Assembly (NCBI GenBank): GCA_965285935.1
Contig: OZ260661.1
Coordinates: 144,522,001-144,586,000, forward strand
Source: Ophelia neglecta
Lineage: Eukaryota
Direction of reading: 5' to 3'
DNA length: 64,000 bases
Each line of letters begins with the position of its first letter. Positions within the stretch are counted from its first letter, which is position 1. Shown here in pieces: positions 443-64,000 of the stretch. Under the pieces are notes generated by a model. That model did no database searches, was not told where the DNA came from, and saw nothing but the letters and a program-made list of their open reading frames with translations. The translations under genes and the position numbers were made by a program.

Positions 443-541
443 CCATTGCGTTAGAAGACAATGCGGAGCTGAGATCCAAACTAAAGAAACTAGCTCTTCC
501 CTCCAAGGAATACTTCCAGTTTACGGCCACAGATGGCACTG
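443..541 (+). CDS. DPP4: DPP4-like peptidase, internal exon (IALEDNAELRSKLKKLALPSKEYFQFTATDGT)
   Basis: AG at 441-442, GTAAGT at 542, phase 1-1. Matches human DPP4 LEDNSALDKMLQNVQMPSK. The gene begins upstream of the window. The symbol denotes the family; strict orthology is not established. Confidence 0.9.
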
Positions 542-842
542 GTAAGTAGACATACTTAACAATAGGTACTGTATTATTAACAGTCTAATTGACTAAACAA
601 GTCCAATTAGACAATAAGGCGCGAACTTAAATATTCGGATATGTACAGACAGTGCAAAATCATTGATAATATGTACATTTACTAAGCGCTCCATTTATCG
701 TAAATGAACGCAAGGGCGATTATCAATATATAAAAAAGTGCTCTACTTAAAAGCTTAACTTACTAGAATAAACAAGCATGAATCCATATCAGGAAGTATC
801 CATTTTATCGGTCTGAGTTTATCTGGAACATTTTATTTACAG

Positions 843-918
843 AAATATATGGTGAGATGTTGTTGCCTCCACTTCTGAAGAAGGACCACATAACTATGTA
901 CCCAATGCTGGTCTACAC
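843..918 (+). CDS. DPP4: DPP4-like exon (EIYGEMLLPPLLKKDHITMYPMLVYT)
   Basis: tttacAG acceptor, GTGAGT at 919, phase 1-2. Matches DPP4 QMILPP...KYPLL. Confidence 0.93.
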
Positions 919-1075
919 GTGAGTGGTAAACATCAAATGTTTAAATAATGATAGTCCACATGGTTTTGTTTATGAATATTTGAATATGAGTTCAGTTGCC
1001 TCATATTTTGACTGATTAACGTCCAGAATTACCTTAGAAACCAAGCTAGATCTGAATACTCCTTCATATATCCAG

Positions 1076-1270
1076 GTATAATGGTCCCGGGACTCAGCTG
1101 GTGACGGACGAGTTTAAAATTGGGCTACCCACCTATCTCTCAAGCACAGAGAATGTGATATATGTATCCATAGACGGACGAGGCACCTCCGGACGAGGGG
1201 ATAACTATCTACATCATGTATATCACAACCTGGGGGTCACCGAGGTCACAGACCAGATAGACGGCGCCAG
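1076..1270 (+). CDS. DPP4: DPP4-like exon (YNGPGTQLVTDEF...SIDGRGTSGRGDNYLHHVYHNLGVTEVTDQIDGAR)
   Basis: tccAG acceptor, GTAAGT at 1271, phase 2-2. Contains S9B motifs YxGP and DGRG...LG..EV.DQI. Confidence 0.96.
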
Positions 1271-1313
1271 GTAAGTGTCTTTCAGTCAGCTTAGAACGCC
1301 TTTTCTGTAAATA

Positions 1314-1490
1314 CAGTGAAACCTGCATTAAAGACCACCTCTTTATTCAGACCCACGGTCAATTCAGACCACTAGTATGAAGGCCATGCTGCATACTTTC
1401 AATATAAACAAACCTGTCAAAACAGGCCACCTCTATGATCAGACCAGTATTAACAGTCCCTTGGGTGGTCTCAATTCACAGGTTCCACTG
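1314..1490 (+). mobile_element. Tc1/mariner-type MITE family A (~178 bp)
   Basis: TIR CAGTGAAACCTG / CAGGTTCCACTG, TA on both sides, internal AGACCAC motifs, multiple copies in the window. Confidence 0.9.
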
Positions 1491-2317
1491 TATCTATAGG
1501 CACGGAAATGGTTATCAATGCTTGATAGCCTTCAGCCTTATGCTCTTGAGGATTTGGACATATTTAAGGGAGTATTTTTCAATGATGATTTTCTTTAACG
1601 CCCGGGTGTCGACAGGTTCATATAAAATAGCCTTGCCTTTATATGCAGTTGTGCTATAGTAAAAAGAAAGTTGTGACACGTAGTAACACATAATGGTTTC
1701 TTAACTAGTTTCGATAGTAGCCCTGTCTCTTCAGAAAAATGTGTACATAATGATATAATCGTTATATCTTTGCTAGTTTCGACAGCACTCTCTCTTCTAA
1801 AAAGGTTGCATACATAATGGCTGTATGTTTAAAGTAAACATTATATTTATATAGATTATGAGAGCACCTGTCACAACTTGATTGTGTGGACTTTCATAGT
1901 TCAATTGATACAGGCAAGCGGGAATAAAAGCGGTATCCTTTATAATTGCATTTGGAGGAAATGTGTTTATGGCCTATGACGTGGTAATATGCAGTAAATA
2001 CAAATAACGTTAATCGGATTATCTCCAAGTGTACAATATACATAGTATATATGGTACATTATTTGATATTTAGCATCTGCCAGGTTTGAGGTTCCGATCC
2101 GCCTTGTTAATCATTTAATTGCATTTAATTTTGGTTTTAAACTCTTTGTAAATACATTTCCTTGATGTCCCTTAATGAATTTCCCGGGCTGCAAAGTTTA
2201 TACAAGGGAAATATCTTAACTTTTAGATCTAAATGAACGGCACATTTTGCAGCATGTGATGTTGAGACACCCAACGTTCTATAAGTGTATAAAATTTCAA
2301 CTGTGCATTATTCACTA

Positions 2318-2495
2318 CAGTGAAACCTGTCTTACAAATCACCTCTATATTCAGACCATCTGCCTATTCAGAACACTAATATGAAGACCCTACTGCGTGT
2401 TTTAAGTGTAAAGTTACCTGTCTAAAGAGACCACCTCAACAATCAGACCAACATTTTACAGTGCCTTGGGTGGTCTTAATTTACAGGTTACACTG
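2318..2495 (+). mobile_element. MITE family A copy
   Basis: TA-CAGTGAAACCTG ... CAGGTTACACTG-TA. Confidence 0.88.
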
Positions 2496-3091
2496 TATTT
2501 TGATCTGCTATTGCTTGAATAATTATTTTGAACTTGTGAATTTTAGGGAGACTATAAATAATGCTAGTTTCAACCTCAAAGTTATCCAAATAATTCTCAT
2601 CTTTAGTCAAACATTCCCTGTCTCTCTTAATTATATCTTGTAGTTTACCCATTGCTTTATCTTTGTTATTTGTCTGTTCTTGTTAGTACTGTCATCATTC
2701 AATGTATCGGTAATACGAACGATGTCAAACGTTCAAGAGTACTGTGCACGCCTTGTTTAATCTGCTCTTGATACCTAGCCATTGCCTTATGTTTTTGTTC
2801 CAAGTTTGTTATAGTCTTCCAGTGTTATCGTAAGCTCCCTGGAGACTTGACTCCGTAAGCTTCCTCTATCTCTCTGGAGACTAAGTCGCTTGACTATATA
2901 CATCCTTGCATTGTGCAAGTGTGTGTACGAGCGTGCGTACCTGCATGAATGCCCATAGTTAAACTGGCACCTGTTGTCACTCTGCATCAGAACATAAAAT
3001 CGCCTAAAAGGATGCCCGCCCATCATGCATAAGATCAGAAAAAACGCAGTTTGCTTTATTCTTGTTAAGATATTTTTTAACTGACTTTCAG

Positions 3092-3149
3092 ATATCTAAG
3101 GGACACGTACATGTTTGTTGACAAAGACAGAATAGCCATCTGGGGATGG
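3092..3149 (+). CDS. DPP4: DPP4-like exon (YLRDTYMFVDKDRIAIWGW)
   Basis: ttcAG acceptor, GTAAGT at 3150, phase 2-0. First half of the nucleophile motif. Confidence 0.95.
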
Positions 3150-3390
3150 GTAAGTAGTCTATCTATCTGGGGATGGGTAAGTAGTTTATCTATCTGGGGA
3201 TTGGTAAGTAGTCTATCTATCTGGGGATGGGTAAGTAGTCTATCTATCTGGGTATGGGTAAGTAGTCTATATATCTGGGGATGGGTAAGTAGTCTATCTA
3301 TCGGGGATGGGTAAGTAGTCTATCTATCTGGGGATGAGTAAGTAGTCTATCTATCTGGGGATGGGTAAGTAGTCTATCTACTTGGGATGG
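3138..3390 (+). repeat. 27-bp tandem repeat of the exon end plus splice donor (atctggggatgg|gtaagtagtctatct), 9 copies plus a degenerate tenth
   Basis: GTAAGT at 3150, 3177, 3204, 3231, 3258, 3285, 3311, 3338 and 3365. Confidence 0.97.
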
Positions 3391-3542
3391 ATGAGTGGTC
3401 GCAAAATGTCACTATTTCAATAATACCACTCACTGTAAGGACATTCTATTAGTTAAAGCGGTGTTATCACAAGGACATATCTACTATTTAGCTCTATTTT
3501 GTGCCTTTATTAATAGAACAATTCGACGATTACTGTTTTCAG

Positions 3543-3642
3543 TCGTACGGAGGGTTTGTAGTTGTTCACGCCTTGGGGGAGCCTGGAAGTGTATTCACGT
3601 GTGGGGTAGCCGTCGCCCCCGTCGTAGACTGGAGGCTCTACG
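3543..3642 (+). CDS. DPP4: DPP4-like exon with catalytic Ser (SYGGFVVVHALGEPGSVFTCGVAVAPVVDWRLY)
   Basis: ttttcAG acceptor, GTGGGT at 3643, phase 0-1. Completes GWSYGG and carries AVAPV. Confidence 0.96.
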
Positions 3643-3820
3643 GTGGGTAAAATGCATAAACATATTAATTTTAACTTATATGTTCTAGATGTTTAGACCA
3701 ATAGTATAATGAAGGTTCACTTTGTAATATGAGCGAAGCGCAGCACTAGCGGATACGACTTAAGTTTTATATTTTCTGTGTAGGTTGTATTTAAGTCAAC
3801 GTCCTGTTTTATACTTTCAG

Positions 3821-3885
3821 ACACAGCTTATACGGAGAGATACATGGGCTTCTCAAGTGGCAACGAAAACTTTAGAGGTTATGAT
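3821..3885 (+). CDS. DPP4: DPP4-like exon (DTAYTERYMGFSSGNENFRGYD)
   Basis: tttcAG acceptor, GTTAGT at 3886, phase 1-0. YTERYMG motif. Confidence 0.96.
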
Positions 3886-4403
3886 GTTAGTATCAGGCGC
3901 CATAATGTAAATTTAGGGTGTACCATGTAGGGTCAGGGGTCACGATGTAAGGTCGGGGGGAACGATGTAACCGAGTTAATCAATTAGGAGCTGAGGTCAC
4001 GGTGTAAGTTCAGGGCTTACGGTCAGAGAAAGGATTGTTTTGTCAGAGTTTACGATTTGTATTCAGGAATTACGATGTTCAGTGTTTGTGATGTAAGTTA
4101 AGGATTTACTAGGAAAGTTTAAAGATTACGATTGATCAGAAGTTGTGATGTTATTTCAATGTTTACGATGTGCGTACAGGATTTACGATCTAAGTTAAAG
4201 AATTACGATCAAGGTTTAGAGGTTACGTTTATGGCTTAATGTTTTGATATTAGGTAAGTATTCATGAATTGCGCTCAGGGAATACGATGTAAGTTCAGGG
4301 TTTGCGATGTAAGTTGAGTGCCTAAGATTTAAGGTCAGTGGTTGATTTTTAATAGTCTGAAGGCCATAAAAAGGTTCCCCTAATAATAATATATTCTTTT
4401 CAG

Positions 4404-4476
4404 AATGCCAACGCAACAAGAAAAGCTGTGAAATTGAAAGACAAACAGTTCATGCTCGTCCACGGGACGGCAGATG
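4404..4476 (+). CDS. DPP4: DPP4-like exon with catalytic Asp (NANATRKAVKLKDKQFMLVHGTAD)
   Basis: ttttcAG acceptor, GTACGA at 4477, phase 0-1. HGTAD motif. Confidence 0.95.
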
Positions 4477-4617
4477 GTACGATTGTTTCTTTTGATTAGT
4501 CCGCTTTTAATATTAGAAGCTGGAACACTCTGTTAGTTAGATGCTGCCTCTCCTGAGCTTCTGAATGTTAGATGCTGCCTTTCCACTGCTTCTTATTGAG
4601 CTTCTAATTATTTTCAG

Positions 4618-4847
4618 ATAACGTACATTTCCAACACTCAGCTCAACTGATGAGGGCTCTGAACGAGGCTGAAATCGACTTCAGAGCCCAGTTATACATA
4701 GACAATGCTCATTTCCTCATCTGCTCAGAGCGACATCTCTACCGTAACATCGCAAACTTCCTGAAGAGGGAGTGCTGGGAAGGGGGTCAACCCCGGGACG
4801 CTATAAACGAGGAGGCCATAACTGAGAAAAATATCAATAACTCGTGA
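4618..4847 (+). CDS. DPP4: DPP4-like terminal coding exon with catalytic His (DNVHFQHSAQL...YIDNAH...NINNS*)
   Basis: ttttcAG acceptor, stop TGA at 4845-4847. DNVHFQ motif, and YIDNAH aligns with human YTDEDH. Confidence 0.95.
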
Positions 4848-10942: not shown

Positions 10943-11020
10943 ATGTCCACTCTACATTCATTCCACGCAACGCGGCACATGGAAGCCGAGGAGACGAGAA
11001 TATGGAGAGCTTCGTGGAGG
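10943..11020 (+). CDS. Candidate alternative first exon MSTLHSFHATRHMEAEETRIWRASWR (phase 0)
   Basis: ATG, 26 open codons, AGG|GTAAGT. Same length and E-x-x-IW-x-A-x-W motif as 50612-50689. Confidence 0.6.
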
Positions 11021-32817: not shown

Positions 32818-34939
32818 GTTAGTTAAAGAATCAATGCTGTATTAAACTTTTAACTAACTTCGGGAGTATGTATTGTAAACAAAGAAAATGGGGGCATATA
32901 TGGTGAAAAAAAAAAAAAACGGAAGTATATATTGTAAAACAAAGGAGCCATAAACGCGGAAGCGTTTAGTGTGAACAAAGAAAACGGGAGAAAAATTATA
33001 GAAAGACAGGGTGTGAATTTGATTTTGAATTTTTTTATAAACTCCTCATCGGTAGGCAGTTATTTTAACGAAAATTCCCCCTCCCAGGGAAGTTTTGAAT
33101 GTCCACAGTGAAAATATTTCTCAACTAATTCTTGAGCTCAAAATATCTTTATTAACAATAACTGAGGATATCCCCGTGTCTCAATCCATTCACCAGTCCC
33201 ACTTGCAATTCCACCTCATTCCTCAGACCAGGGGGGAACCCCACCGCACTAGCCTAACTATTGCCTGTTAATATTGAGCCCAAATTCACGCTTTCATAAC
33301 TTTGTTTCCACTGTCACACTTGTTCTTAATGTGTTTATACCAGTACCATTTATATGCTAGGCGAATGAATATTACTTTGCCCTGTCCTTGAATTTAAATG
33401 TTAATGGACTAATTTCGATTGTTGATTTGGTTTGTTCTGGCGAGTATCCAGTCCAATGTTTTCGTTAATTGTTTTTCTCAATCAACTGTTCATTTGTTGA
33501 GCAGATATTTAACACAGACGGTCAATCGCGGGTGTACGCTGTTGTCTCCGGATGCATTTCTGCAGCAATGATCGTCTCTATTGCGTTAGGAATAATAAAG
33601 AGAGCTTGATTGTTGATCGGCCATACTCAATATATAACGCTCGCCACTGCTTTTCTGACCACAGCGCATGGTGACGATACCTGAGGCTTTTTTGCACGGT
33701 ATCTTCATCTAAACTTTTTGCTGCTGAGTAATGTAAGAGTGGCTAGATGTTAAGTAAGAAAAAGTAGGAAAATTGCAGGCAGGGATTTTATGTGAACTGC
33801 AAAGTTTTGCGACGAAGGTGAAATACGCGAAATTTTTCAACGCGTGAACATTTTCGGATTTACCTCATTTGGTGGACAGACCAAAATCGATTTTCGACGA
33901 AATAAAAAGGGGCAGAAAATTCAATTAAAAGGAAGAGTCTTTTAACCAAGACAAACGGGAGTGGACACCAAGCGGAAAAAGAAAATAATTAAAGAGCAAT
34001 AGCCCATTAAACATAAAAGTGCCTTGACAACAACAACAGCTGTGCAAAATTTGTATGGACCGAATAGTTTAATGAAAAATAAGGTGAAAGGCTCTCCTTG
34101 TTTGTGGGTCTGTTGCTGCTAGTTCCTGCTGAGTTTGGGAAGATTGAATAATGATTTTGCGTTGGCTGTAGGGTATCCAATCCCGTTTATAAGGAGACAC
34201 TAAAATATAAAAAAGTTACATTCCAAATTGCTCCTTTGCTGATGTAAGAATAATGTCATAATATGCGTTGAGTATATGGGAACAACAAAAAAATATGACG
34301 ACATTACTTTGAAAGAGGTAAAGCTCTGCAAGGATGTAACCTAATTAGCAGTCTGGTCCATTGAAATTAATGGGAAACACCGATAATTTAGGTTGAACAA
34401 ACAACTTACACAGACACTTATGCCCAGGTTTTTTTTAACAATTGAAAACACTTCGTACTTATTTTCATATTTTTAGTCAAAAAGACTTGATAGCAAATTA
34501 TCCTACCTCCTTCATGTCTCGGTTTTCAATGCACTAGCTGAAAGCCGAGTTGTCGACTTGTTCCCCTCAATCAGTACAGCCTATTGCTGATCTGCTTGCC
34601 AGCGAGAAAGTCTCTCTTGTCGAAACCAATCGTCAGAAATAAACCTTGATCTTTATTGTACCAGTATTCGGTGCCGTTAAATAAATGGATGTACATATTA
34701 CAGTAAAGGATTATCGCATTGTCGGTACGGGTTAGATGTCAGGATACCAGTATAGAACTACATTATAGAGGTCTGACAACCTTTCTTTGTATTGTTAACA
34801 AGGGCAGGCGGCAAAACGAAGGATGGTACAATCAGGCAACATTATAATAACCAGCCACCATCACTGTGGTAAGTAAATGGCATAACCCCTAGCAAACATC
34901 ACGATACACAGCGATACTCAACCAACAGTATATAAGTCA

Positions 34940-35656
34940 GTCAACATCACAATACCCGGCCAATATGTAAAAATTCACCAACATTACAATACCCGGCCAA
35001 TATGTCAAAACTCACCAACATTACAATACCCGGCCAATATGTCAAAACTCACCAACATTACAATACCCGGCCAATATGTCAAAACTCACCAACATTACAA
35101 TACCCGGCCAATATGTCAAAACTCAGCCAACATCACAATACCCAGCCAATATGTCAAAACTCACCAACATTACAATACCCGGCCAATATGTCCAAACTCA
35201 CCAACATTACAATACCCGGCCAATATGTCAAAACTCACCAACATTACAATACACGGCCAATATGTCAAAACTCACCAACATTACAATACCCGGCCAATAT
35301 GTCAAAACTCACCAACATTACAATGCCCGGCCAATATGTCAAAACTCACCAACATTACAATACCCAGCCAATATGTCAAAACTCACCAACATTACAATAC
35401 CCGGCCAGTATGTCAAAACTCACCAACATTACAGTACCCGGCCAATATGTCAAAACTCACCAACATTACAGTACCCGGCCAATATGTCAAAACTCACCAA
35501 CATTACAATACCCGGCCAATATGTCAAAACTCACCAACATTACAATACCCGGCCAATATGTCAAAACTCACCAACATTACAATGCCCGGCCAATATGTCA
35601 AAAAATAGTTTTGACATATTGGCATATTGGCCGGGTATTGTAATGTTGGTGAGTTT
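34940..35656. repeat. 37-bp tandem repeat (~18 copies) ending in an inverted copy
   Basis: Unit caccaacattacaatacccggccaatatgtcaaaact, with reverse-complement copies at 35608-35656. Confidence 0.97.
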
Positions 35657-36068
35657 AACCCGGTTAACCGCAGGGCTGGACATGGGGCGTGCGTAGACCA
35701 GGGCGTAGGGACCCGTATCATGAAATCTCAGGGCATATTTCATCTCTGTCCAAAGTTAACCACTCGTTTGTTTTGTGTGCTGCATCATAGAAAACTGGTT
35801 ACTACTTCTCATTGCGAGTAGTATCAAGTTTATGTATTATTAGCATTACAATTGTATTTACTGTTTGGGAGCTAGAGATTCATTTGTTGATATGTGTGGG
35901 GCTGTGGCTGCTGCTTCCATGTACCTTAGGACTGATTTCATGGACTAGTCTCGATCAATGATTTGGCTTTGTCTCCCAGGTGTCTAGTCCCGTTTTGTTG
36001 TGGTTTGGTATCTTAATTCGGCGTAGGTACAGTATGTCTTTTTCGGGCGTTTGGGCTTTGGTCGGTCC

Positions 36069-36547: not shown

Positions 36548-38458
36548 TCATTTTGTACTTGTACTGTTTTGTTCAGGGTTAGGAGCTGAGGTCAGTAGTT
36601 ACGGATGTGTCTCGTTCTGAAATAGGATCTTACAGATGGGTCTGTTTCGGGCGTAGCCATTAGTTCGGGAATTTCGGACCTGTTTTTGTTCTTGCGTTCT
36701 GTTCGATAGATGTCAGAGATGTGCCTTCTTTTTGCTTACAACCGTCTGTAGGTTGTCTTGCTTGTCTTGCCTGTTGTGGAACCTTAGGTCGGTAGTTTGT
36801 GATTGTCTTTTCTGGTGTGGGACCTTAGGTTGATAGTAACAGGCACGCTTTTCTCTGGCATGAAACCATAGGTAGCTACAAATGTGTCTTTTTCATTCTT
36901 CCTTACACCACTACAGGAAATCTCAATCGAGGCAACAAATTTTTACTAAGGATTCTGAACGCAAAATGTAAGATGAAGCACACTCAGGACCTCGGCGTTA
37001 GGAAGAAAATGGACCTGCTAGGAATAGGTGTGTGTGTGTGTGAGTGTGAGGGTGTGTGTGCGGGGGGGGGGGAGGTGATTGTTGGTTCTCATTAAGAAAA
37101 CTATGGAAACTACTAACAGCCAAAAGGATTTGTTTTTTAAAAAAAGCTCCTTTCTACGTATTTTCCCCGGAATAAGAAATCCGTCAGATATGATCTAACT
37201 CGATGGACATAGCTGTTTGACAAGCGATATGCTTATTCAAGCCAGCTGTATTCGGACGAAAATATTTCCTATCTCGTAAAATGCTTCCATTTACGGACAC
37301 TGTGATATAAATCCGGTTCAACGTTGTGTCATCCATCACATGCTTTACAAGGATTGACTAAATTGATTTAAACACACAACACACTCTAACTAGAGGGTCT
37401 TATACAGGCACCAGTCTTATTATCTCGTCTACAAGGGCAAAATAATGTGATATGGCAGAGACACGGCTCACTCCGGTCTGCCATTTCCAGTGATATCGTC
37501 TCGTTTAGCACATATAATGGATTATAGAGTGAGTTAACACAATAATCAATCACATACATACTGAGTGTTCCTGCTGCAGCGCCTGCGACAGCGGTGGCGC
37601 TCCTTGAAATCAGGCAGCGGAAGAGTAAAATATATTCTCAAGTTTGGAGGACGAAGACGTCGGGCCAATCTGTCATTGTACACAATATCTTTTGTCTTGG
37701 GCTTCACACATACGTCAGTGGACGAAGGATATGTAGAAAGATATAACCTCGCACATATTATATGAAAGGTGCGCTATTAAATTACTGGAATATACTTGAT
37801 ATGGAGCTTTGATTAGTCAAAAAAGTGCCTCAATATAGAAGGATTAACAAAGCATCAGTTCAAAGAACAGAAAGTTCAAGACTGAGATCGAATGTTCGAG
37901 ACACATAACGGACGCTTTGGGTATTCAAATCAACCAAGGGAGACAATCGTCGACCAGTAATATGCCAGTGTCGAGATATATTACCAGGTGGCAAACATTT
38001 CAAAAAGCTTGTCACGTGATACATATCGCCTGAAAGTTTGATAGTGAATGCTTAATACTGTAAGGGCCTAATTAAGTGCACAGTGTCTTAAATTCGGACA
38101 CAAACAGAAAGGGTCGTTGTCGTTTGTGATTTCCTACCATGTTGACAGTGACACAGCATCATCCTTCCGTGGGAGCATCCACTTCGGCGAATATCATAAA
38201 CATTCCCGTATTAAACACCAGGAAAAGTAAAATAATACGAGATCCTACCAAACTACCAAGTATACAGGAATTAGAGGTAAGGTTGTAACTCTACTCATGT
38301 TGGAGATCAACATGAATTATCATGTCATGACCTATGTCGGCGTGAATGGTAGATATGATGTATTGGCTTGTATACTTTTCAATAACAAGTGTTCCCATCT
38401 TCAACTTTTGTAAGGAGCCCATAAAACCAGTTTTCTTGTGGTAACACCGTTTCTCTTT

Positions 38459-41644: not shown

Positions 41645-41892
41645 CACATGGGTCTGGTATACAGACCCTTATTGGCACCTCCCTGTCTTAACAATACAGA
41701 ACTTACCCCCCCTCATAGTGTCCCATTGTGACTCTTTACGTATCGGTATCGGTCTGACAACACCTCGTGCTTGAGATGTTAATCTACAACCCCGAGGGTT
41801 GACGGAAGGCATTATAGCCCCACGGACTTAAATGGCAAGCTACTTCTCTTGGAAGTTTCACAACTCCTGTACGGGCTACTGAGCAGCAGACG

Positions 41893-42054
41893 ATGACATA
41901 TTGCTATTTGACCCTCGAAGTACATCAAGGCCGTTTCATTTCTGATGTATTGGTGGCAAGGGACTCAAGGATGGAAACTGCTAAAGAAATGGATAACATA
42001 AAACTTTTGGCATCTCGCATATGGATTGCTCGGGACCCATTTACACGGGGCTCT
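41893..42054 (+). CDS. Candidate alternative first exon ...METAKEMDNIKLLASRIWIARDPFTRGS (phase 0)
   Basis: 54 open codons from the ATG to TCT|GTGAGT. RIWIA echoes RIWRA (10943) and TIWQA (50612). Confidence 0.4.
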
Positions 42055-42265
42055 GTGAGTTTTATATGTATTATGGCTGTCTTCTGAACACGCCCGCATT
42101 CAGTGACGGTTTTCGAATTAGCCCTGGTACATTACCTCTGTAAAGAAGCATAAGGGGAGTTAAATCAAGCTTGCTGTTAAAAGTAAACTTGATATAGAAT
42201 CTGTTCTGTCTGCGTTTTTTAAAAGCGTTTACTTGTTTGTATTCACCTTATTTCGTGTTCAAGTA

Positions 42266-50611: not shown

Positions 50612-50689
50612 ATGGCAGATTCACAGAAAGTTCCCGCTGTGGTGAAGACAGCGGAAGACGAGGTGACAATATGGCAGGCCCCGTGGGAG
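50612..50689 (+). CDS. Candidate alternative first exon MADSQKVPAVVKTAEDEVTIWQAPWE (phase 0)
   Basis: ATGG, 26 codons, GAG|GTAAGT. Shares length and motif with 10943-11020. Confidence 0.65.
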
Positions 50690-54943: not shown

Positions 54944-56769
54944 TATGATTTTATTTATATTCCTTAAGAATATTTAAGGATTGTTTCCATAATAGTAAAA
55001 GTTGTTGTAAAATTTCGCGATTATTTTCGTTTTTTGTGTGTACACATCTATGTTTATCAGTCTCAATTCTAACGGAACAATGCGATTGCTTTGCACAATG
55101 CTTCACTCTTTAGCAACTGGTGTATATCCTTCATTCATTTTGTTAAAGGTTTGAAAACCAATTAAGAATTAATAATAGTCATGGGTGAAACCTCAACGTC
55201 ATTGTTGCACAGTCAGCCCCGAAACGGGCGGTGCAATTGACATGATTACTGGATATACAGATGAAATGTGTGCAATCATTGCACTTTTGTTAGTTTTTTA
55301 ACTTTGAAATGAAATTAAGTCCTTTTTTTTGTAAAAAATGACCAGTTTTCAAAATAAAATGTCCTAATGGACAAGGTAAGGAAATAGAAAAGAGAAAATT
55401 GATACGGTGTGTGGAATCATTTCTTCTAGTGGAATCAAGGTTTTTCATCTATCCGAATTTCCCATACTTTGCTCGGCTTGCAACAATAGCACTAGAGTCC
55501 TCATGCAACTTACATGGAGGGGCTGTAGACTCCGGTGTTATCGATCATTATAATGCAGTCATGCGTTTTTACTCTTAAGGACTGTCTCGGCTGGCACGAA
55601 CTGTAAAATGCTATAAAGAAAAGTTTGTGATAATTCTAGGATTATGCATATCATACTCAAGTGTACCGCCCTATACCTAAACCAGTTATGGTCTCTGTGC
55701 TCAGCTTGAATAGGATCAGTCGGGGATGATGTAATAATTCTAGTTCAGCCTGCCAGCAAGGAGGTGACAGCACTGCATACCAATAGTCTGCACTTGAATG
55801 TGGGGCTAGACTACAGATTTGCAGCGGTTCCATGTTCATTGCGAAACCTGTAGCTATTACACAAATGTGAAATTTACCTGAATGGAAAGCCCTCTAAAAT
55901 GTTAATCATCCCTGAAAGTTTTGTTTTGATTACTTAAACAAGCACTAAGTAAGGGCTTTTAAAACATCATTCCCATGTTAAATTCCCATATGAACAGCTG
56001 AAAGTAGCCCCACTTATCCCAGCCTTACCACTGCCTTTTAATTGCAATCAGCTTTGGAGGTAAGAAAAGTGGTTGTTGGACAGCAGTATGAAACATATCC
56101 GACTGGCCCTATTGTCCTCTGTGTGGTAACGCTATTGAGAAATAAGCACACCTGTTCACAAGGGCAAAGTAGGTCCTATTTATTTTCACATGGATTAAGG
56201 CGGTACTTTTATTTGCCATCAAGTCATTGTGCAAAAAAGTGCAGGAAGTGTTTTAGCTGTTAAACAAGAGTATAGGTGGGAATATCCACAGGATGTAAAG
56301 CCTGCCCGTAACTTTATTGCTATAGTAACCATGTATCACTCAAACAATCGACAATCAAAACATTATTCAAAATGTATAATATGTAAGGGTTGTGAATTTG
56401 AAATACAGAAAAGGAATACCATTGGCCGACTTGGGTTTCTTATGACAAAGCCAAGTAAACAATATGTACTACTGTTTCAACCTAACATTTACCTCCCAGC
56501 AGACACTGGAACCCAGCTAAAAGCCCAACAGATCTGTATCTCATAGTGACAACCAAGTTAGATCGGATCTTCCGTCTACCTTCGAACTCACCTGTATCCT
56601 CACTTGTCAATGACTTCAGGCTAGTGAGGGTGCCCATCTCCCTTTGCAAACTGCTACATCCACAAGACGCGAAGTTGTCCCACCATCATCTCACTTTTTT
56701 GTTTGATATAGCTCCTTTTGATGTCTTTGCTATTGACTACTAAGTGACATCAATATAAGTTTTAATTAG

Positions 56770-59700
56770 GATTAATGTATTAGGGCCTGTGCTGCTGGTT
56801 CCTGGGTATTGATGTATGTGGGCCTGTGCTGCTGGTTCCTTGGGTTGATGTATGTAGGCCTGTGGCGGCTGGTTCCTGGGTATTGATGTATGTGGGCCTG
56901 TGGCTGCTGGTTCCTGGGTATTGATGTATGTGGGCCTGTGGCTGCTGGTTCCTTGGGGTTGATGTATGTGGGCCTGTGGCTGCTGGTTCCTCGAGATTGA
57001 TGTATGTGGGCCTGTGGCTGCTGGTTCCTGGGTATTGATGTATGTGGGCCTGTGGCTGCTGGTTCCTGGGTATTGATGTATGTGGGCCTGTGGCTGCTGG
57101 TTCCTTGAGATTGATGTATGTGGGCCTTTGGCTGCTGGTTCCTTGAAGTTGATGAATGTGGGCCTGTTGCTGCTGGTTCCTTGGGATTGGTGTATTAGGG
57201 CCTGTGGCTGCTGGTTCCTTGGGATTGATGTATGTGGGCCGGTGGCTCCTGGTTCCTTGGGATTGATGTATGTGGGCCTTTGGCTGATGGTTTAAGGGGA
57301 TTGATGTATGTGGGCCTTTGGCTGATGGTTTAAGGGGATTGATGTTTGTAGGCCTGTGGCCGCTGGCTCCTTGGGATTGATGTATGTGGGCCTGTGGCTG
57401 CTGGTTCCTTGGGATTGATATATGTGGGCCTGTGGCTGCTGGTTCCTTGGGATTGATGTATGTGGGCCTGTGGCTGCTGGTTTCTGGGTATTGATGTATG
57501 TGGGCCTGTGGCTGCTGGTTCCTTGGGATTGATGTATGTGGGCCTGTGGCTGCTGGTTCCTTGGGATTGATGTATGTGGGCCTGTGGCTGCTGGTTCCTT
57601 GGGATTGATGTATGTGGGCCTGTGGCTGCTGGTTACTTGGGATTGATGTAAGTTGGTCTTTGCAGCTGGTTCCTTTATATTGATGGATGTGGGCCTGTTG
57701 CTTCTGGTTCCTTGAGATTGATGTATGTTGGCCTGTGGATGCTGGTTCCTTGGGATTGATGTATGTGGGCCTGTGGGTGGCTGCTGGTTCCTTCGGATTG
57801 ATATATGAGGGCTGTGGCTTCTGGTTCCTTGGGATTGATGTATGTGGGCATGTGGCTGCTTGTTCCGTGGGATTGATGTATGTGGGCCCGTGGCTGCTGC
57901 TTCCTCGGGTATTGATGTATGTGGGCCTGTGGCTGCTGGTTCCTTGGGATTGATGTATGTAGGCCTGTGGGTGGCTGCTGGTTCCTTTGGATTGATGTAT
58001 TAGGGCCTGTGGCTGCTTGTCCCTTGGGATTGATGTATGTGGGCCTGTGGCTGCTGGTTCCTTGGGGTTGATGAATGTGGGCCTGTTGCTGCTGGTTCCT
58101 TGGGATTGGTGTATTAGGGCCTGTGGCTGCTGGTTCCTCGGGATTGATGTATGTGGGCCTGTGGCTGTTGGCTCCTTTGGATTGATGTTTGTGGGTCTGT
58201 GGCTGCTTGTTCCTTGGGATTGATGGATGGGGGCCAGTGGCTGATGGTTCTTTGGGATTGATGTATGTGGGCCTGTGGCTGCTGGTTTCTGGGTATTGAT
58301 GTATGTGGGCCTGTGGCTGCTTGTTCCTTGGGATTGATGTATGGGGGCCTGTGGCTGATGGTTCTTTGGGATTGATGTATGTGTGCCTGCGGCTGATGGT
58401 TCAAGGGGATTGATGTTTGTGGGCCAGTGGCTGATGGTTCCTGGGGATTGATGTAAGTGGGCCTGTGGCTGCGTGTTCATGGGGATTGATGTATGTGGGC
58501 CTGTGGCTGCTGGTTCCTTGGGATTGATGTATGTGGGCCTGTGGCTGCTGGTTACTTGGGATTGATGTATGTTGGCCTGTGGCTGCTGGTTCCTTTATAT
58601 TGATGGATGTGGGCCTGTTGCTTCTGGTTCCTTGAGATTGATGTATGTTGGCCTGTGGATGCTCGTTCCTTGGGATTGATGTATGTGGGCCTGTGGCTGC
58701 TGGTTCCGTGGGATTGATGTATGTAGGCCTGTGGGTGGCTGCTGGTTCCTTTGGATTAATATATGAGGGCTGTGGCTTCTGGTTCCTTGGGATTGATGTA
58801 TGTGGGCCTGTGGCTGCTTGTTCCGTGGGATTGATGTATGTGGGCCCGTGGTTGCTGGTTCCTTGGGTATTGATATATGTGGGCCTGTGGCTGTTGGCTC
58901 CTTTGGATTGATGTATGTGGGTCTGTGGCTGCTTGTTCCTTGGGATTGATGAATGGGGGCCTGTGGCTGATGGTTCTTTGGGATTGATGTATGTGTGCCT
59001 GCGGCTGATGGTTCGAGGGGATTGATGTTTGTGGGCCAGTGGCTGATGGTTCCTGGGGATTGATGTAAGTGGGCCTGTGGCTGCGTGTTCATGGGGATTG
59101 ATGTATGTGGGCCTGTGGCTGCTGGTTTCTGGGTATTGATGTATGCGGGCCTGTGGCTGCTGGTTCCTTGGGATTGATGTATGTGGGTCTGTGGCTGGTG
59201 GTTTCTTGGGATCGATGTATGTGGGCCTGTGGCTGCTGGTTCCTTGGGATTGATGTATGTGGGCCTGTGGCTGCTGGTTACTTGGGATTGATGTATGTTG
59301 GCCTGTGGCTGCTGGTTCCTTTATATTGATGGATGTGGGCCTGTTGCTTCTGGTTCCTTGGGATTGATGTATGTGGGCCTGTGGTTGCTGGTTCCTTGGG
59401 ATTGATGTATGTAGGCCTGTGGGTGGCTTCTGGTTCCTTCTGATTAATATATGAGGGCTGTGGCTTCTGGTTCCTTGGGATTGATGTATGTGGGCCTGTG
59501 GCTGCTTGTTCCGTGGGATTGATGTTTGTGGGCCCGTGGTTCCTGGTTCCTTGGGTATTGATGAATGTGGGCCTGTGGCTGCTGGTTCCTTAGGATTGAT
59601 GTATGTAGGCCTGTGGGTGGCTGCTGGTTCCTTCGGATTGATGTATTAGGGCCTGTGGCTGCTCGTCCCTTGGGATTGATGTATGTGGGCCTGTGGCTGT

Positions 59701-60170
59701 TCGTCCCTTGGGATTGATGTATGTGGCCTTGTGGCTGCTCGTCCCTTGGGATTGATGTATGTTGGCCTGTGGTTGCTTGTTCCTGGGGATTGATATATGT
59801 GGGCCTGTGGCTGATGGCTCCTTGGGTTTGATGTATGTGGGCCTGTGGCTGTTGGTTCCTCGGGATTGATGTATGTAGGCCTGTGGCTGTTGGCTCCTTT
59901 GGATTGATGTATGTGGGTCTGTGGCTGCTTGTTCCTTGGGATTGATGGATGGGGGCCTGTGGCTGATGGTTCTTTGGGATTGATGTATGTGTGCCTGCGG
60001 CTGATGGTTCGAGGGCATTGATGTTTGTGGGCCAGTGGCTGATGGTTCCTGGGGATTGATGTATGTGGGCCTGTGGCTGCGTGTTCATGGGGATTGATAT
60101 ATGTGGGCCTGTGGCTGATGGCTCCTTGGGATTGATGTATGTGGGCCTGTGGCTCCAGGTTCCTTTGGCT
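56770..60170. repeat. 38-bp satellite (~89 copies) with block duplications
   Basis: Unit gggattgatgtatgtgggcctgtggctgctggttcctt. Diagnostic variants recur three times. Confidence 0.98.
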
Positions 60171-60738
60171 TCTAGCTGCTGGTTATTTCATCCAATTTAT
60201 ATAGAGAATATTGTATGTTTTTTGTAAAGGTCCAAAGAAAGGCTCCTATCTACGCGACCCACACGAACTCACGACCAATTAAGTACCAGCTATGTGCATG
60301 ATGTACTTTATATAGTTACCATAAGAAGGCAGCCAGGCTTGTTCTTCAGTAAATGCCTCGTTTTGTATAGTTGATTACCTACATTGGCGTCATAAACATA
60401 GTTTTATTCATGTTCAATAGACTTCAGGCCACACATGGGTTGTTGAATGTCAACCCATTAAGATAGTGAATTATTACCTAAGTGCTCTGCATGAAAAAGC
60501 ACGCAGCAATGTATTCATGGCGCTACCATGGGTCCAGTGCATGTTGTGTCTAACTAATAAACAAGGAGGCCATTGGTGAATATGCGTGCCAACTTGAGGC
60601 ATACACTATATCCGTAAATTATTAGGCACACTAGACATGTATGGGCAATTTGCTAGTTACTAATTGACTGTCAATAACTATACAGCAATATGTTACCGGA
60701 TATCATCAACTGACGAATTAACTCGCTATGTACTATTG

Positions 60739-60867
60739 TTGTAGCCAGAGGACACACCGCTTTAACATGGTGAAGTGGCCTCGCCAGGAATAGCGCTGAT
60801 TGTCATCACAGTTCATGTTTTTCTCTTTACGTAATAAGTATCAAATTTCATCGCCAAAGCAACCCGC
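60739..60867 (+). promoter_or_regulatory. Conserved non-coding block upstream of Cys-rich exon 1
   Basis: Homologous to 62257-62385 at a similar distance from the ATG. Confidence 0.55.
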
Positions 60868-61305
60868 ATTGCGTGGGCCAGTGAGGAAGAGAAGGGAGGT
60901 ATTATTGGCACATTCAGTCGTTTGAAGTCACAGTGTCTATTAATGGATGAAGCCTGATGTGCATTGATCTGAACAAATGACGGCGCAAGTCCGAGTGATC
61001 TAACAAGACTATTGTTCAGACATATTGGGAACAGTCAGAGTGATTAATCTAATTTGTCTATTGTTCAAACATATTGGACACGCATTATTCACAGGCTTAA
61101 TGTATTCTAGAAGTATTTTCGATTGACATACATAGATCCGAATAGAAGTAAAGGATAAACAATAGACACTGTCTAGCGCCTAGTCCAGGGATGTTAAACA
61201 TGGTAACTTCAGAATAGAAGATCGTACTTGGTGCGTGACAGTGCACACGGTACTTAATTCCGGCGTTTTCTGATGTGTTAGCGAGGTTAAAAGTTGTCTA
61301 TTAGG

Positions 61306-61440
61306 ATGTCTCGCGTAGCAAGCCAGAGTGGGGCGGTGGTAGGGACAACATACCATGGACTTTACCCCGAGTACCGAGCCAATGGCCACTGTTCACTGGT
61401 CACCTGCCTCTGTGAACTGTGCTCTTGGTGTCTGGGTCTG
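61306..61440 (+). CDS. Cys-rich first coding exon, copy 1: MSRVASQSGAVVGTTYHGLYPEYRANGHCSLVTCLCELCSWCLGL (phase 0)
   Basis: ATG, 45 codons, CTG|GTAAGT. 28/42 aligned residues identical to 62796-62921, with many synonymous changes and a 9-nt in-frame indel. Confidence 0.8.
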
Positions 61441-62256
61441 GTAAGTAGCCACTGACATTACATCTATGGTGCGGTGATTTGTACTCGCTTCTACCCGTTT
61501 AAATGTAAAGGAAATACAAATCCCCCCACCCCCTGTTCAAAGACACATTGGACTAGACCATAACCGCTACCTGTATGCAGCTCCTGGTGCGGACCAAGAA
61601 GCCGAGTATGGTGTCAATTCTTTAGACCACACCTTTATTACTCATCAATACTTACCCGTCCCGACCAGTAGGGCAATGGTCCCATTTCCGTCAGACCACT
61701 CCTGAATGCTTCTCTGCCTGTGACTCCGCGACTGACCTCTATATACAATGGACATCGTACCAGCTGTGTGTTTTATTAATGTCACTCTGAAAACCACTCT
61801 CCAATTGCGTTAATCCATTGTTAGCAACCTACATGTATAAATTGCCATCTGTTACTAGCCATATGCTTTGTTCAGTAAGCACGGTACTAACATCATTGTA
61901 CAGTTTATACACAATTAATGACGATCCATACCTGGCTAGTTGATTGTCGCCAGTTTAAGGGGGTGTATTGTTCCTAGGGATATTTGTATGTGTAGCGCTA
62001 TTACATGAATGGCAAGGTATACTTTCTACTGCCTGTTGGAACTCCCTTGCTAATGAGTAGTTCTCCAAACAATGTCAATGTGCGCTTTGTATTTGTTCTG
62101 GACACATGTTAGAAGTGAGACATGCAAGATACGGATTGATCTCTAGGTATATGATCAATCTTGTGCAAGCTGCCAATCGACAGACAATAGTCAAACAGCC
62201 ATTTGTATGACCATCGATCTAAGCGACTGATGACATAAATCACACTAGTATCATGA

Positions 62257-62385
62257 TTGTAGCCAGGGGACATACCACTTTAACATGGTGAAGAGGCCTC
62301 GCCAGGGATCGCCCTGATTGATATCGCTGTTCCTTTTTTTTTTCATTACCTAATGGGTATCATATTTCATTGCCACAATACCCGC
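62257..62385 (+). promoter_or_regulatory. Conserved non-coding block upstream of Cys-rich exon 2
   Basis: ttgtagccag.ggaca.acc.ctttaacatggtgaag.ggcctcgccagg shared with 60739-60867. Confidence 0.55.
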
Positions 62386-62795
62386 TGATGTGTTGGTCAT
62401 GAAGCTGGGAAAGGGAGACATTACATGTTGCATGTCGTACCATGATATCACTGGGTGGAGTCCGATATACACTGACTATAACAAGGAGACTCACTGCGTT
62501 ATTGTTGTAAAAAGATATCTATATACCCAGGTCGGAAGGATAAGCTGATTCAGTGATTAGGCGTCTAAGTGGGCCATTGTACAGTCATATTGTACAAATT
62601 TTGCACCCATTTGATATATTCAAGGAATTCGCTTAAAGAGTCACAGCCACAAATTCTGGAATGATCCGCAATGGTACTGTAGAAACAAGGATGTTTGCTT
62701 TTCTGTGAATATCTATCAATAATAAACTCAGGGGTGATTTTTCTTGTTTGGTCTGGTAATGAATGCTGTTGGGTAAAGGACGGTTTATTAGTATA

Positions 62796-62921
62796 ATGTC
62801 TCGGATAGCTAGCCAGAGTGGGGCGGGGGCGGGGACCGTTTACCGTGGATTGCACCCAGACTACCGTGATGCTGGACTGGTCACCTGCGTTTGTGAGATC
62901 TGCTCCTGGTGTGTCGGCATC
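62796..62921 (+). CDS. Cys-rich first coding exon, copy 2: MSRIASQSGAGAGTVYRGLHPDYRDAGLVTCVCEICSWCVGI (phase 0)
   Basis: ATG (an in-frame ATG also at 62763), 42 codons, ATC|GTAAGT. Paralogue of 61306-61440. Confidence 0.8.
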
Positions 62922-63399
62922 GTAAGTAATGAGTTCGTTATCAAATAAATTATGCGTTCTTTGTATCATAAGGATGAATGTTACGATATGTTGCGTTAAA
63001 CGACTGACTTAGCCTATTAGAATCCAGAATTGGGAGCCTGAAATTCACTTTGGGCGTTTCTAGTTTAGGTTCTTTACAATCCATCATGCTCGATCAAAAT
63101 GGTTTTACTGTAGGTAATTATTGAATGCAATGGTAAATATTGAAAAATATCAGGACTTTATTTTTAAAGAAAAACGTTTTAGAAACTGTTTCACTTGTGC
63201 TATCATTTGCAATGGCCTATTAAGGGTGCAAAGTGCTAGGTAGAAAAAAAACATTATTGGCCTCACAGCTCACAGGCCTTATGCCTGTGGTTGCCCATAA
63301 GATTGCCCATTATAAGGAATAGTTAAAGTGTTGAATAAATTGTACTAACAGATTTATTCCGTAACTTTGTTACTGTATCACGCCTCTAAAGTGCAAACC

Positions 63400-64000
63400 T
63401 TGGTTGGTGACATCTAACATTCATGCACCTGGCTTTGCACGGCCCTGAGAGACAAAATGAACTTGCTGGTGTCATCTAACATTCATAGACCTGTCTTTGC
63501 ACGGTCCTTGGAGATTAATGAAACTGTTTCTAGCATTAAGAGACAAAATGAACTCGTAGGTAAAATCTAACATTCATAGACCTGTCTTTGCACGGTCCTG
63601 AGAGACAAAAAGAACTTGTTGGTAACATCTCATATTCATAGACCTGTCTTTGCACGGTCCTAAGAGACAAAATGAACTTGTAGGTGACATCCAACATCCA
63701 TAGACCTGTCTGCAAGGCCATGAGATATGAATGAACCTGTAGGTAACATATAACATTCAAAGACCTGTCTTTGCACGGCCCTGAGAGACAAAAAAAAACT
63801 TGTTGGTGACATCCAACTTTCATGGACCTGTCTTTGCACGATCCTGGGAGATGAATGAACCTGTTTCTAACATTAAACATTCATGGACCTGGGATATCAA
63901 GAACTTTTGAGACAATTGAAACAGATGGTGATATCTTACGTTCGTGGACCTGGCTTTTAACGGCCATGAGAGATCATCAAATGATCCTGTAGATATCCTC
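63400..64000. repeat. ~61-bp degenerate tandem repeat
   Basis: Unit aacattcatagacctgtctttgcacggtcctgagagacaaaatgaacttg. Confidence 0.9.

What the first reader, a model, noticed from the sequence alone, without database searches (positions are those of the whole stretch)
60739..62927. Tandem ~1.5-kb duplication of an upstream block plus Cys-rich exon, with a coding-type substitution pattern
Seen: the two exons share 28/42 residues. Differences include synonymous changes (cgc/cgg, gca/gct, aca/acc, ctt/ttg, ccc/cca, cga/cgt, gaa/gag, tct/tcc, ggt/ggc), conservative replacements (V/I, E/D, L/V, L/I) and one 9-nt indel. Both end at a phase-0 GTAAGT and keep LVTCxCExCSWCxG. Only copy 2 appears in the ORF track. 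Inference: both copies are functional, mutually exclusive starts, and the CxCxxCxxC cluster could be a palmitoylation or metal/redox site next to the membrane.
Basis: partly seen in the sequence, partly recalled or inferred. Interest (0 to 1): 0.75.

Follow-up and report, generated by a model that had tools for sequence, protein, structure and literature searches.

The report
Duplicated cysteine-rich start of DPP10-like gene
Two neighbouring copies of a short cysteine-rich exon sit just in front of a DPP10-like membrane peptidase gene and are likely alternative starts that give the protein a cell-interior tail predicted to be lipid-modified and to steer its uptake from the cell surface: a known gene layout with an unusual tail.

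Summary
The duplication is real and shows a coding-type pattern (dN/dS 0.30; copy-1 branch pN 0.11 vs pS 0.32). It is not a transposon.

It is a DPP4-family peptidase with all triad motifs present and a DPP6/DPP10-type membrane anchor; its closest named relatives are annelid. Both copies end in phase 0, matching that gene's exon 2. They are the nearest two of at least five conserved candidate first exons inside the window, the layout known for DPP6/DPP10 and seen in annotated invertebrate orthologues. The same exon heads two paralogues elsewhere in the genome.

The tail is the unusual part: a YxxL motif plus a hydrophobic Cys cluster. None of 49 orthologue tails has three or more Cys near the membrane. 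S-acylation with adaptor-driven sorting is the most likely mechanism; redox gating of Kv4 is the main rival.

Against: no RNA data were found, and a second haplotype has a 4-base deletion at copy 1's splice donor, so copy 1 may be decaying. Verdict: new variant of a known kind, moderate interest.

The parts
61306..61440 (+). Copy 1 (B1): candidate first coding exon, 45 aa; YHGL at 16-19, CxCxxCxxC plus one extra Cys in a 3-codon insertion; donor at 61441
   Evidence: donor scores above 61 of 71 family donors; second haplotype has a 4-base deletion at 61441
62796..62921 (+). Copy 2 (B2): candidate first coding exon, 42 aa; YRGL at 16-19, CxCxxCxxC; donor at 62922; nearest to exon 2
   Evidence: a second allele differs at four codons, none in the motifs
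60651..60856 (+). Conserved non-coding block Y, copy 1 (likely promoter or 5' regulatory element)
   Evidence: 73.6% to copy 2; three copies in the genome, the third before paralogue A's exon; a short core is also seen before paralogue C's exon
62164..62400 (+). Conserved non-coding block Y, copy 2
60330..60471 (+). Conserved non-coding block X before copy 1; a weaker counterpart lies at about 61800-62020
   Evidence: 69% to the same position before paralogue A; three-way alignment; marginal against shuffles
50612..50689 (+). Further candidate first exon of the same gene, 26 aa, phase-0 donor, no Cys
   Evidence: 85% identical to paralogue A's; 6 matches in the genome, all upstream of a family exon 2 on the same strand
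38139..38276 (+). Further candidate first exon, 46 aa, phase-0 donor, no Cys
   Evidence: 70% identical to paralogue A's; 2 matches in the genome
10943..11020 (+). Further candidate first exon, 26 aa, phase-0 donor; weaker case
   Evidence: 48% to a mini-exon of paralogue D, E 7e-5 within the candidate set
451..4837 (+). Last exons of the upstream tandem paralogue (gene A); its own Cys-rich first exon lies 12.8 kb before the window
62922..64000 (+). Start of the intron that leads to exon 2 of the DPP10-like gene B. Exon 2 (ELV..NWRG plus membrane anchor) and about 20 further exons lie beyond the window, in loci L005:743 to L006:230

Best explanation
The two copies are a local tandem duplicate of a conserved upstream block plus an ATG-to-donor exon, likely used as alternative first exons of the DPP10-like peptidase gene just downstream, and the cytoplasmic tail they would encode is predicted to be S-acylated at its Cys cluster and sorted through its YxxL motif. 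Shown: the duplication, purifying selection on the copy-1 branch, phase match to exon 2, the family identity of the gene body, and other conserved phase-0 mini-exons upstream. [quoted passage not shown] Odds by step: alternative first exons 0.8; copy 1 long under selection 0.9; copy 1 still needed today 0.65; S-acylation 0.55; YxxL used 0.5; Kv4 partner 0.6.
For: Exon 2 opens in phase 0 and matches DPP6's juxtamembrane and anchor at E 4e-9, with no DPP4 chain among the 8 hits. Other exons hit DPPIV_N and Peptidase_S9 (6 of 7 exons tested, all six over the curated cut-off) and cover 737 of 791 residues of an annelid homologue. DPP6/DPP10 have alternative first exons on a common core (PMC3973911, section 7). 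In 10 invertebrate clusters, 49 distinct annotated tails all join at the same ELV point. Of 203 candidate ATG-to-donor mini-exons upstream of gene B, those at five places have a counterpart in another paralogue. Copy-1 branch pS 0.32, pN 0.11, bootstrap share with pN >= pS 0.0006; neutral survival of frame, ATG, donor and motif is 0.6% or less with indels and 3% at most without. Tyr16, Leu19 and the first two Cys are invariant in 4 of 4 copies. The Cys segment has mean hydropathy 1.8-2.2 and its one Glu lies on the far side of a helix from three of the four Cys. One contig without differences covers 61245-61424, while the stretch just before has a second allele with 12 substitutions.
Against: No transcript or junction was seen. 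A second haplotype lacks 4 bases at copy 1's donor in all three runs (one sample); with no other change that donor would score below all 71 family donors, and the neighbouring substitutions were not displayed. YxxPhi is a common motif (5 of 49 orthologue tails), and 23 of 47 alignment columns are invariant, so its conservation is not exceptional. Copy 2's own branch does not show significant selection (bootstrap share 0.145) and its second allele differs at four codons, all non-synonymous. No homologue of the tail was found outside this genome, so there is no cross-species check. S-acylation rests on sequence anatomy alone. No full spliced model was built, so frame continuity over every intron is unchecked.
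Confidence: 0.6

Rival explanations
1. Copy 1 was functional for a long time but is now dispensable and decaying; only copy 2 matters.
For: A 4-base deletion at copy 1's donor on a second haplotype, at about half depth in 3 of 3 runs of one sample; predicted score 2.4 against a family minimum of 3.3. Copy 1 has the longest branch of the three close copies and a 3-codon insertion.
Against: On the assembled haplotype ATG, frame, motifs and a strong donor are intact. Codons 1-39 appear identical on both haplotypes while flanks differ by several percent (inferred from contig overlaps; 43 records not shown). One sample gives no allele frequency.
Confidence: 0.2
2. The tail works like DPP6a/DPP10a: the conserved first ten residues plug the Kv4 pore (N-type inactivation) and the Cys cluster is a redox (glutathionylation) switch rather than a lipid anchor.
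For: Residues 1-10 are the most conserved part, 9 of 10 invariant. DPP6a/DPP10a inactivate Kv4 through their N-terminus, controlled by Cys-13 glutathionylation (PMC3968176 abstract; PMC3973911 passages). The genome has a Shal-type Kv4 match.
Against: Here the Cys lie at 29-42, in a hydrophobic run next to the membrane and far from the tip, unlike Cys-13. The exon profile matched none of the orthologue N-termini. In paralogues D and F another first exon (MNAGASTS...) resembles mollusc tails and is Cys-free.
Confidence: 0.2
3. Copy 1 is the leftover head of a third whole tandem gene whose body was deleted, not a local exon duplication.
For: Copy 1 is at least as far from copy 2 (dS 0.74) as gene A's body is from gene B's (about 0.52) and as copy 2 is from A's exon (0.50). 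Whole-gene duplication is common in this family (8 exon-2 matches).
Against: Head-to-tail spacing of 1.5 kb with blocks X and Y in both units. Copy 1 lies inside gene B's own array of first exons. Block Y is slightly closer between the copies (68.5%) than copy 1 to A (60.1%). With 34 synonymous sites the dS values are imprecise. The outcome for splicing would be the same.
Confidence: 0.12
4. CxCxxCxxC is a four-Cys zinc or iron site.
For: Four Cys in identical spacing in 3 of 4 copies.
Against: Paralogue C has lost the last two Cys by an in-frame 12-base deletion while showing the lowest dN/dS (0.06-0.12). No Pfam match. The surrounding residues are hydrophobic.
Confidence: 0.07
5. The unit is a transposon fragment or an assembly artefact.
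For: The region is flanked by minisatellites and repeats.
Against: Four exon copies and three block-Y copies in 762 Mb, all upstream of a family exon 2. The copies are 73% identical, and both are covered at similar depth in DNA-like runs (possibly the source sample).
Confidence: 0.01

Closest known systems
Vertebrate DPP6/DPP10 (DPLPs) with alternative first exons
   Same: Variable first exons on a common exon 2; the ELV..NW(R/K)G anchor aligns end to end with DPP6 (PMC3973911).
   Different: Catalytic Ser, Asp and His motifs are kept here; about 21 core exons in 10 kb against 25; the tail has a Cys cluster and YxxL; two first exons are direct duplicates of each other.
Fly DPP10 (PMC4873792)
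   Same: DPP10-type membrane region with a DPP4-like catalytic site; the fly protein both modulates Kv4 and cleaves Gly-Pro substrates.
   Different: The paper suggests one such gene in insects; this genome has at least 8 exon-2 matches. No Cys-rich tail appears in the parts read ('cysteine' 0 occurrences in the main text).
DPP6a/DPP10a N-termini with redox-sensitive Cys-13 (PMC3968176)
   Same: A cysteine carried by one alternative first exon is a regulatory site.
   Different: One Cys near the tip there; four or five Cys in a hydrophobic juxtamembrane run here.
Transferrin receptor cytoplasmic tail (analogy only)
   Same: Type II N-terminal tail with a YxxPhi motif at 20-23 that binds AP-2 (10.64898/2026.04.06.716751 passages); palmitoylated juxtamembrane Cys (recalled, from no call).
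   Different: No homology; function of either motif is untested here.
Palmitoylated KChIP N-terminal variants
   Same: S-palmitoylation encoded by optional 5' exons of a Kv4 auxiliary subunit (PMC3973911 passages).
   Different: KChIPs are cytosolic EF-hand proteins; this is the DPP-type subunit.

Membership tests
DPP4 family (S9B) | DPPIV_N propeller plus Peptidase_S9 domain | tested here: met
   3 exons DPPIV_N, 3 exons Peptidase_S9, of 7 tested; best DPP4 chains E about 3e-11
DPP4 family (S9B) | Catalytic triad Ser630/Asp708/His740 and GWSYG motif | tested here: met
   GW|SYGG across an intron, HGTAD whose Asp aligns to residue 708 of full-length DPP4 (weak score, short query), His in DNAHSL (triad numbering from PMC4515598)
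DPP4 family (S9B) | Xaa-Pro dipeptidyl peptidase activity | not testable with these tools
   needs an enzyme assay
DPP6/DPP10-type (DPLP) subunit | DPP6/10-type membrane anchor and flanks, unlike DPP4 | tested here: met
   7 of 8 hits are DPP6, none DPP4
DPP6/DPP10-type (DPLP) subunit | Alternative first exons joined to a common exon 2 | tested here: inconclusive
   Five conserved phase-0 candidates on the DNA; no RNA to show the junctions
Vertebrate DPP6/DPP10 (inactive) | Loss of the catalytic serine | tested here: not met
   Ser kept in paralogues A-F; so not filed as an inactive DPLP but with the active invertebrate DPP10 orthologues
DPP6/DPP10-type (DPLP) subunit | Binds and modulates Kv4 | not tested
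   A Shal-type match exists in the genome; no complex was predicted
DPP6/DPP10-type (DPLP) subunit | Orthology by phylogeny | not tested
   No tree built; placement rests on the anchor and on similarity ranks
Tandem-duplication-derived alternative exons | Adjacent homologous exons, same phase, under purifying selection | tested here: met
S-acylated juxtamembrane tail | Thioester-linked fatty acid on cytoplasmic Cys | not testable with these tools
   Only position and hydropathy were examined
Transposable element | High copy number at unrelated sites | tested here: not met

The most novel reading that the evidence does not exclude
This lineage evolved a new plug-in tail for DPP10-type proteins: an acylation-switched, adaptor-sorted N-terminus that lets a catalytically active Kv4 subunit cycle between surface and endosome, so that one reversible lipid switch sets both A-type current and local peptide breakdown. 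The tail was then multiplied by promoter-plus-exon duplication within a birth-and-death array of first exons, and copy 1 is caught segregating for loss.
Probability: 0.2. Interest if true: 0.6.

Novelty: new variant of a known kind. Interest (0 to 1): 0.36.

Why it matters
Alternative first exons on DPP6/DPP10-type genes are known, so the layout is ordinary. The tail is not: among the relatives examined none carries such a Cys cluster, and six paper searches listed no report of a palmitoylated or endocytic DPP10-type tail. If the motifs work as predicted, they show how a channel subunit and peptidase gains a new trafficking mode by adding one exon. The locus also offers a compact test case of first-exon turnover: duplicated promoter-exon units across several paralogues, with one copy polymorphic at its donor.

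Tried and rejected
RNA evidence: no RNA holder listed. The three runs found cover introns and repeats and behave as DNA of one sample, possibly the source sample; they show no splice joints and say nothing on expression.

Homologues of the tail peptide: Pfam 0 of 2; word-index search of longer proteins none of 946 candidates, weak evidence; 1.84-billion-protein profile search 2 hits, both repetitive and unrelated by inspection; ESM Atlas no usable hit; own profile against the first 250 residues of 120 family proteins nothing under E 1.

Cys-rich exon in paralogues D-H: none in the 12-45 kb fetched upstream of their exon 2 or in two genome searches.

An apparent loss of the catalytic Asp in paralogues D-F was rejected: the changed residue is 709, not 708.

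An upstream in-frame ATG at 62763 was rejected as the start because it is not shared by the other three copies.

The block at 41874-42090 is conserved with gene A but gave no shared reading frame.

Earlier findings of the scan: nothing returned. One PDB query on an unrelated stretch was a mistake and is not used. No structure or complex prediction was run. No supplementary files were consulted.

Full report
OBSERVATION. Two ATG-initiated frames lie at 61306-61440 (45 aa) and 62796-62921 (42 aa), each followed by GTAAGT in phase 0. They share 29 of 42 aligned residues and differ by one 9-base indel. An upstream block repeats at 73.6% over 212 nt. Sliding comparison against shuffles shows patchy homology from about 60400 to 61550 and none beyond, so 1.5 kb is the spacing rather than the length of shown homology. 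A weaker block X is also present in both units.

THE HOST GENE. The window is G000:C1:144522001-144586000. Comparing neighbouring stretches showed about 21 conserved blocks from 743 bases to about 10.2 kb past the window's end, repeated after a third copy of the exon 12.8 kb before the window (gene A) and after a fourth on contig C9 (gene C). Single exons match DPPIV_N and Peptidase_S9 (6 of 7 tested) and DPP4 structures. Exon 2 begins in phase 0 with ELV..NWRG and a 19-residue anchor of mean hydropathy 3.2. It aligns end to end with DPP6 (E 4e-9); no DPP4 chain is among the 8 hits. The gene covers 737 of 791 residues of a Paralvinella homologue with the Ser, Asp and His motifs in place. Of 45 homologues tested, the best by summed score are an unnamed record and annelid proteins at about 50% identity. 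The genome has 8 matches to exon 2 and one Shal-type Kv4 match. A full spliced model and a tree were not made.

ALTERNATIVE FIRST EXONS. No exon 2 lies between the copies, so copy 1 can only join the same core. Of 203 candidate ATG-to-donor mini-exons in the 60 kb upstream of exon 2, those at five places have a counterpart in another paralogue: 10943, 38139, 50612, and the two Cys exons. The exon at 50612 has 6 genomic matches and the one at 38139 has 2, all upstream of a family exon 2 on the same strand. This is the DPP6/DPP10 layout (PMC3973911: section 7 read whole, other passages). I took 52 of the 70 members of ten invertebrate clusters, leaving out fragments and most records of other species. 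They give 49 distinct tails, all ending at the ELV junction; these are database annotations. Fly DPP10 has the same mix of DPP10-type anchor and active site and does both jobs (PMC4873792: first quarter of the text and passages).

SELECTION. Between the copies pS is 0.47 and pN 0.19 (dN/dS 0.30, Fisher p 0.002); the six pairs range from 0.06 to 0.30. Three-point estimates give copy 1's own branch pS 0.32 and pN 0.11 (bootstrap share with pN >= pS 0.0006). Copy 2's branch is 0.15 and 0.08 and not significant (0.145). In neutral simulations at distances 0.2-0.58, frame, ATG, donor and Cys motif survived in 3% of runs at most, and 0.6% or less with indels. This shows long selection, not present use. 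Copy 1 split from copy 2 at about the time of the A/B gene duplication (dS 0.74 against about 0.52 for the bodies; the body blocks include some intron flank), which leaves a lost third gene possible.

RESULTS AGAINST. Three runs of one DNA-like sample carry a second haplotype with 4 bases missing at 61441, copy 1's donor (depths 9.6 of 22.8, 19.9 of 36.5, 9.0 of 16.8). With no other change that donor scores 2.4 on a matrix of 71 family donors whose minimum is 3.3; the assembled donor scores 10.2 (an earlier matrix with four false sites ranked it above 11 of 91). About 12 nearby substitutions were not displayed (70 rows hidden), so compensation cannot be excluded. In the same data one contig with no differences spans 61245-61424, and 30-base overlaps put the first difference at 61425, a third codon position (inferred). 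Copy 2's second allele, listed in one run, changes four codons (V15S, H20N, D22E, A26T), none in the motifs. No RNA run was listed.

THE TAIL. All four copies keep M-S-R-x-A-S-Q-S-G-A, Tyr-x-Gly-Leu and G..LVTCxCE. A, B1 and B2 continue to CxCxxCxxC; C has lost the last two Cys in frame; B1 has one more. A and C have a second YxxPhi. The Cys segment is 15 residues, hydrophobic, with one Glu facing away from three of the four Cys, and would end 13 residues before the anchor. Of 41 homologues with a readable tail (of 120), 2 have two Cys in the last 45 residues and none combines that with YxxPhi. Of the 49 isoform tails, 1 has two Cys, none three, and 5 have YxxPhi. YxxPhi binds the AP-2 mu2 subunit (10.64898/2026.04.06.716751, passages). 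S-acylation of juxtamembrane Cys in type II proteins such as the transferrin receptor is recalled, not retrieved. The most likely mechanism is a lipid-anchored inner-leaflet helix plus a sorting signal that sets surface residence. The main rival is a DPP6a-like pore plug with a redox switch (PMC3968176, abstract only). A metal site is unlikely given paralogue C.

NOVELTY AND VERDICT. Tandem exon duplication and promoter-driven 5' cassettes are known (PMC8373072, PMC4835542: search listing only). Searches listed no palmitoylated or endocytic DPP10-type tail and no annelid expansion; the library lacks most subscription journals and I read listings only for most rows. The finding is a real, lineage-specific variant of a known arrangement. 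Interest 0.36.

Noticed in passing
G000 C1:144.51-144.60 Mb; C9:0.70-0.72, 7.17-7.22 and 8.89-9.01 Mb: At least 8 DPP10-type exon-2 matches, in tandem and inverted clusters: a lineage expansion of a gene suggested to be single in insects.
   Followed up: partly
window 50612-50689 and 10943-11020; upstream of paralogues A, D, E, F (L049-L061): A second family of first exons ending in (I/V)WxxPWE-like residues occurs in two or three diverged copies per gene, so first-exon duplication recurs in this family.
   Followed up: partly
upstream of paralogues D and F (C9:8.95-8.97 Mb): A first exon starting MNAGASTS resembles mollusc tails starting MNSASTS, suggesting an old conserved variant.
   Followed up: no
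paralogues D, E, F (C9:8.89-9.01 Mb): The residue after the catalytic Asp (DPP4 709) is Val instead of Asp; these three also lack the Cys-rich exon in the stretches fetched.
   Followed up: partly
window about 3100-3270, gene A: The splice donor after the GW codons of the catalytic motif is repeated several times as a short tandem unit, offering several in-register donors.
   Followed up: no
window 41874-42090: Non-coding block 72% identical to the matching position upstream of gene A, between two shared first exons; possible promoter or enhancer.
   Followed up: partly
window 56740-60180: 38-base minisatellite of more than 80 units directly upstream of the duplicated unit; long open frames on the minus strand are repeat artefacts.
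   Followed up: no
window 63390-64000 and 34890-35700: Further tandem arrays: about 61-62-base units in the intron after copy 2, and another array mid-window.
   Followed up: no
4.2 kb before gene A's Cys exon (L017/L016 region) and 1.7 kb before gene C's (L027 about 1320-1420): A 96-base non-coding block is 80% identical between genes A and C; no counterpart was found before gene B.
   Followed up: partly
window 62838-62871: Copy 2's second allele matches the residues of paralogues A and C at two of four changed codons (Ser15, Glu22).
   Followed up: no
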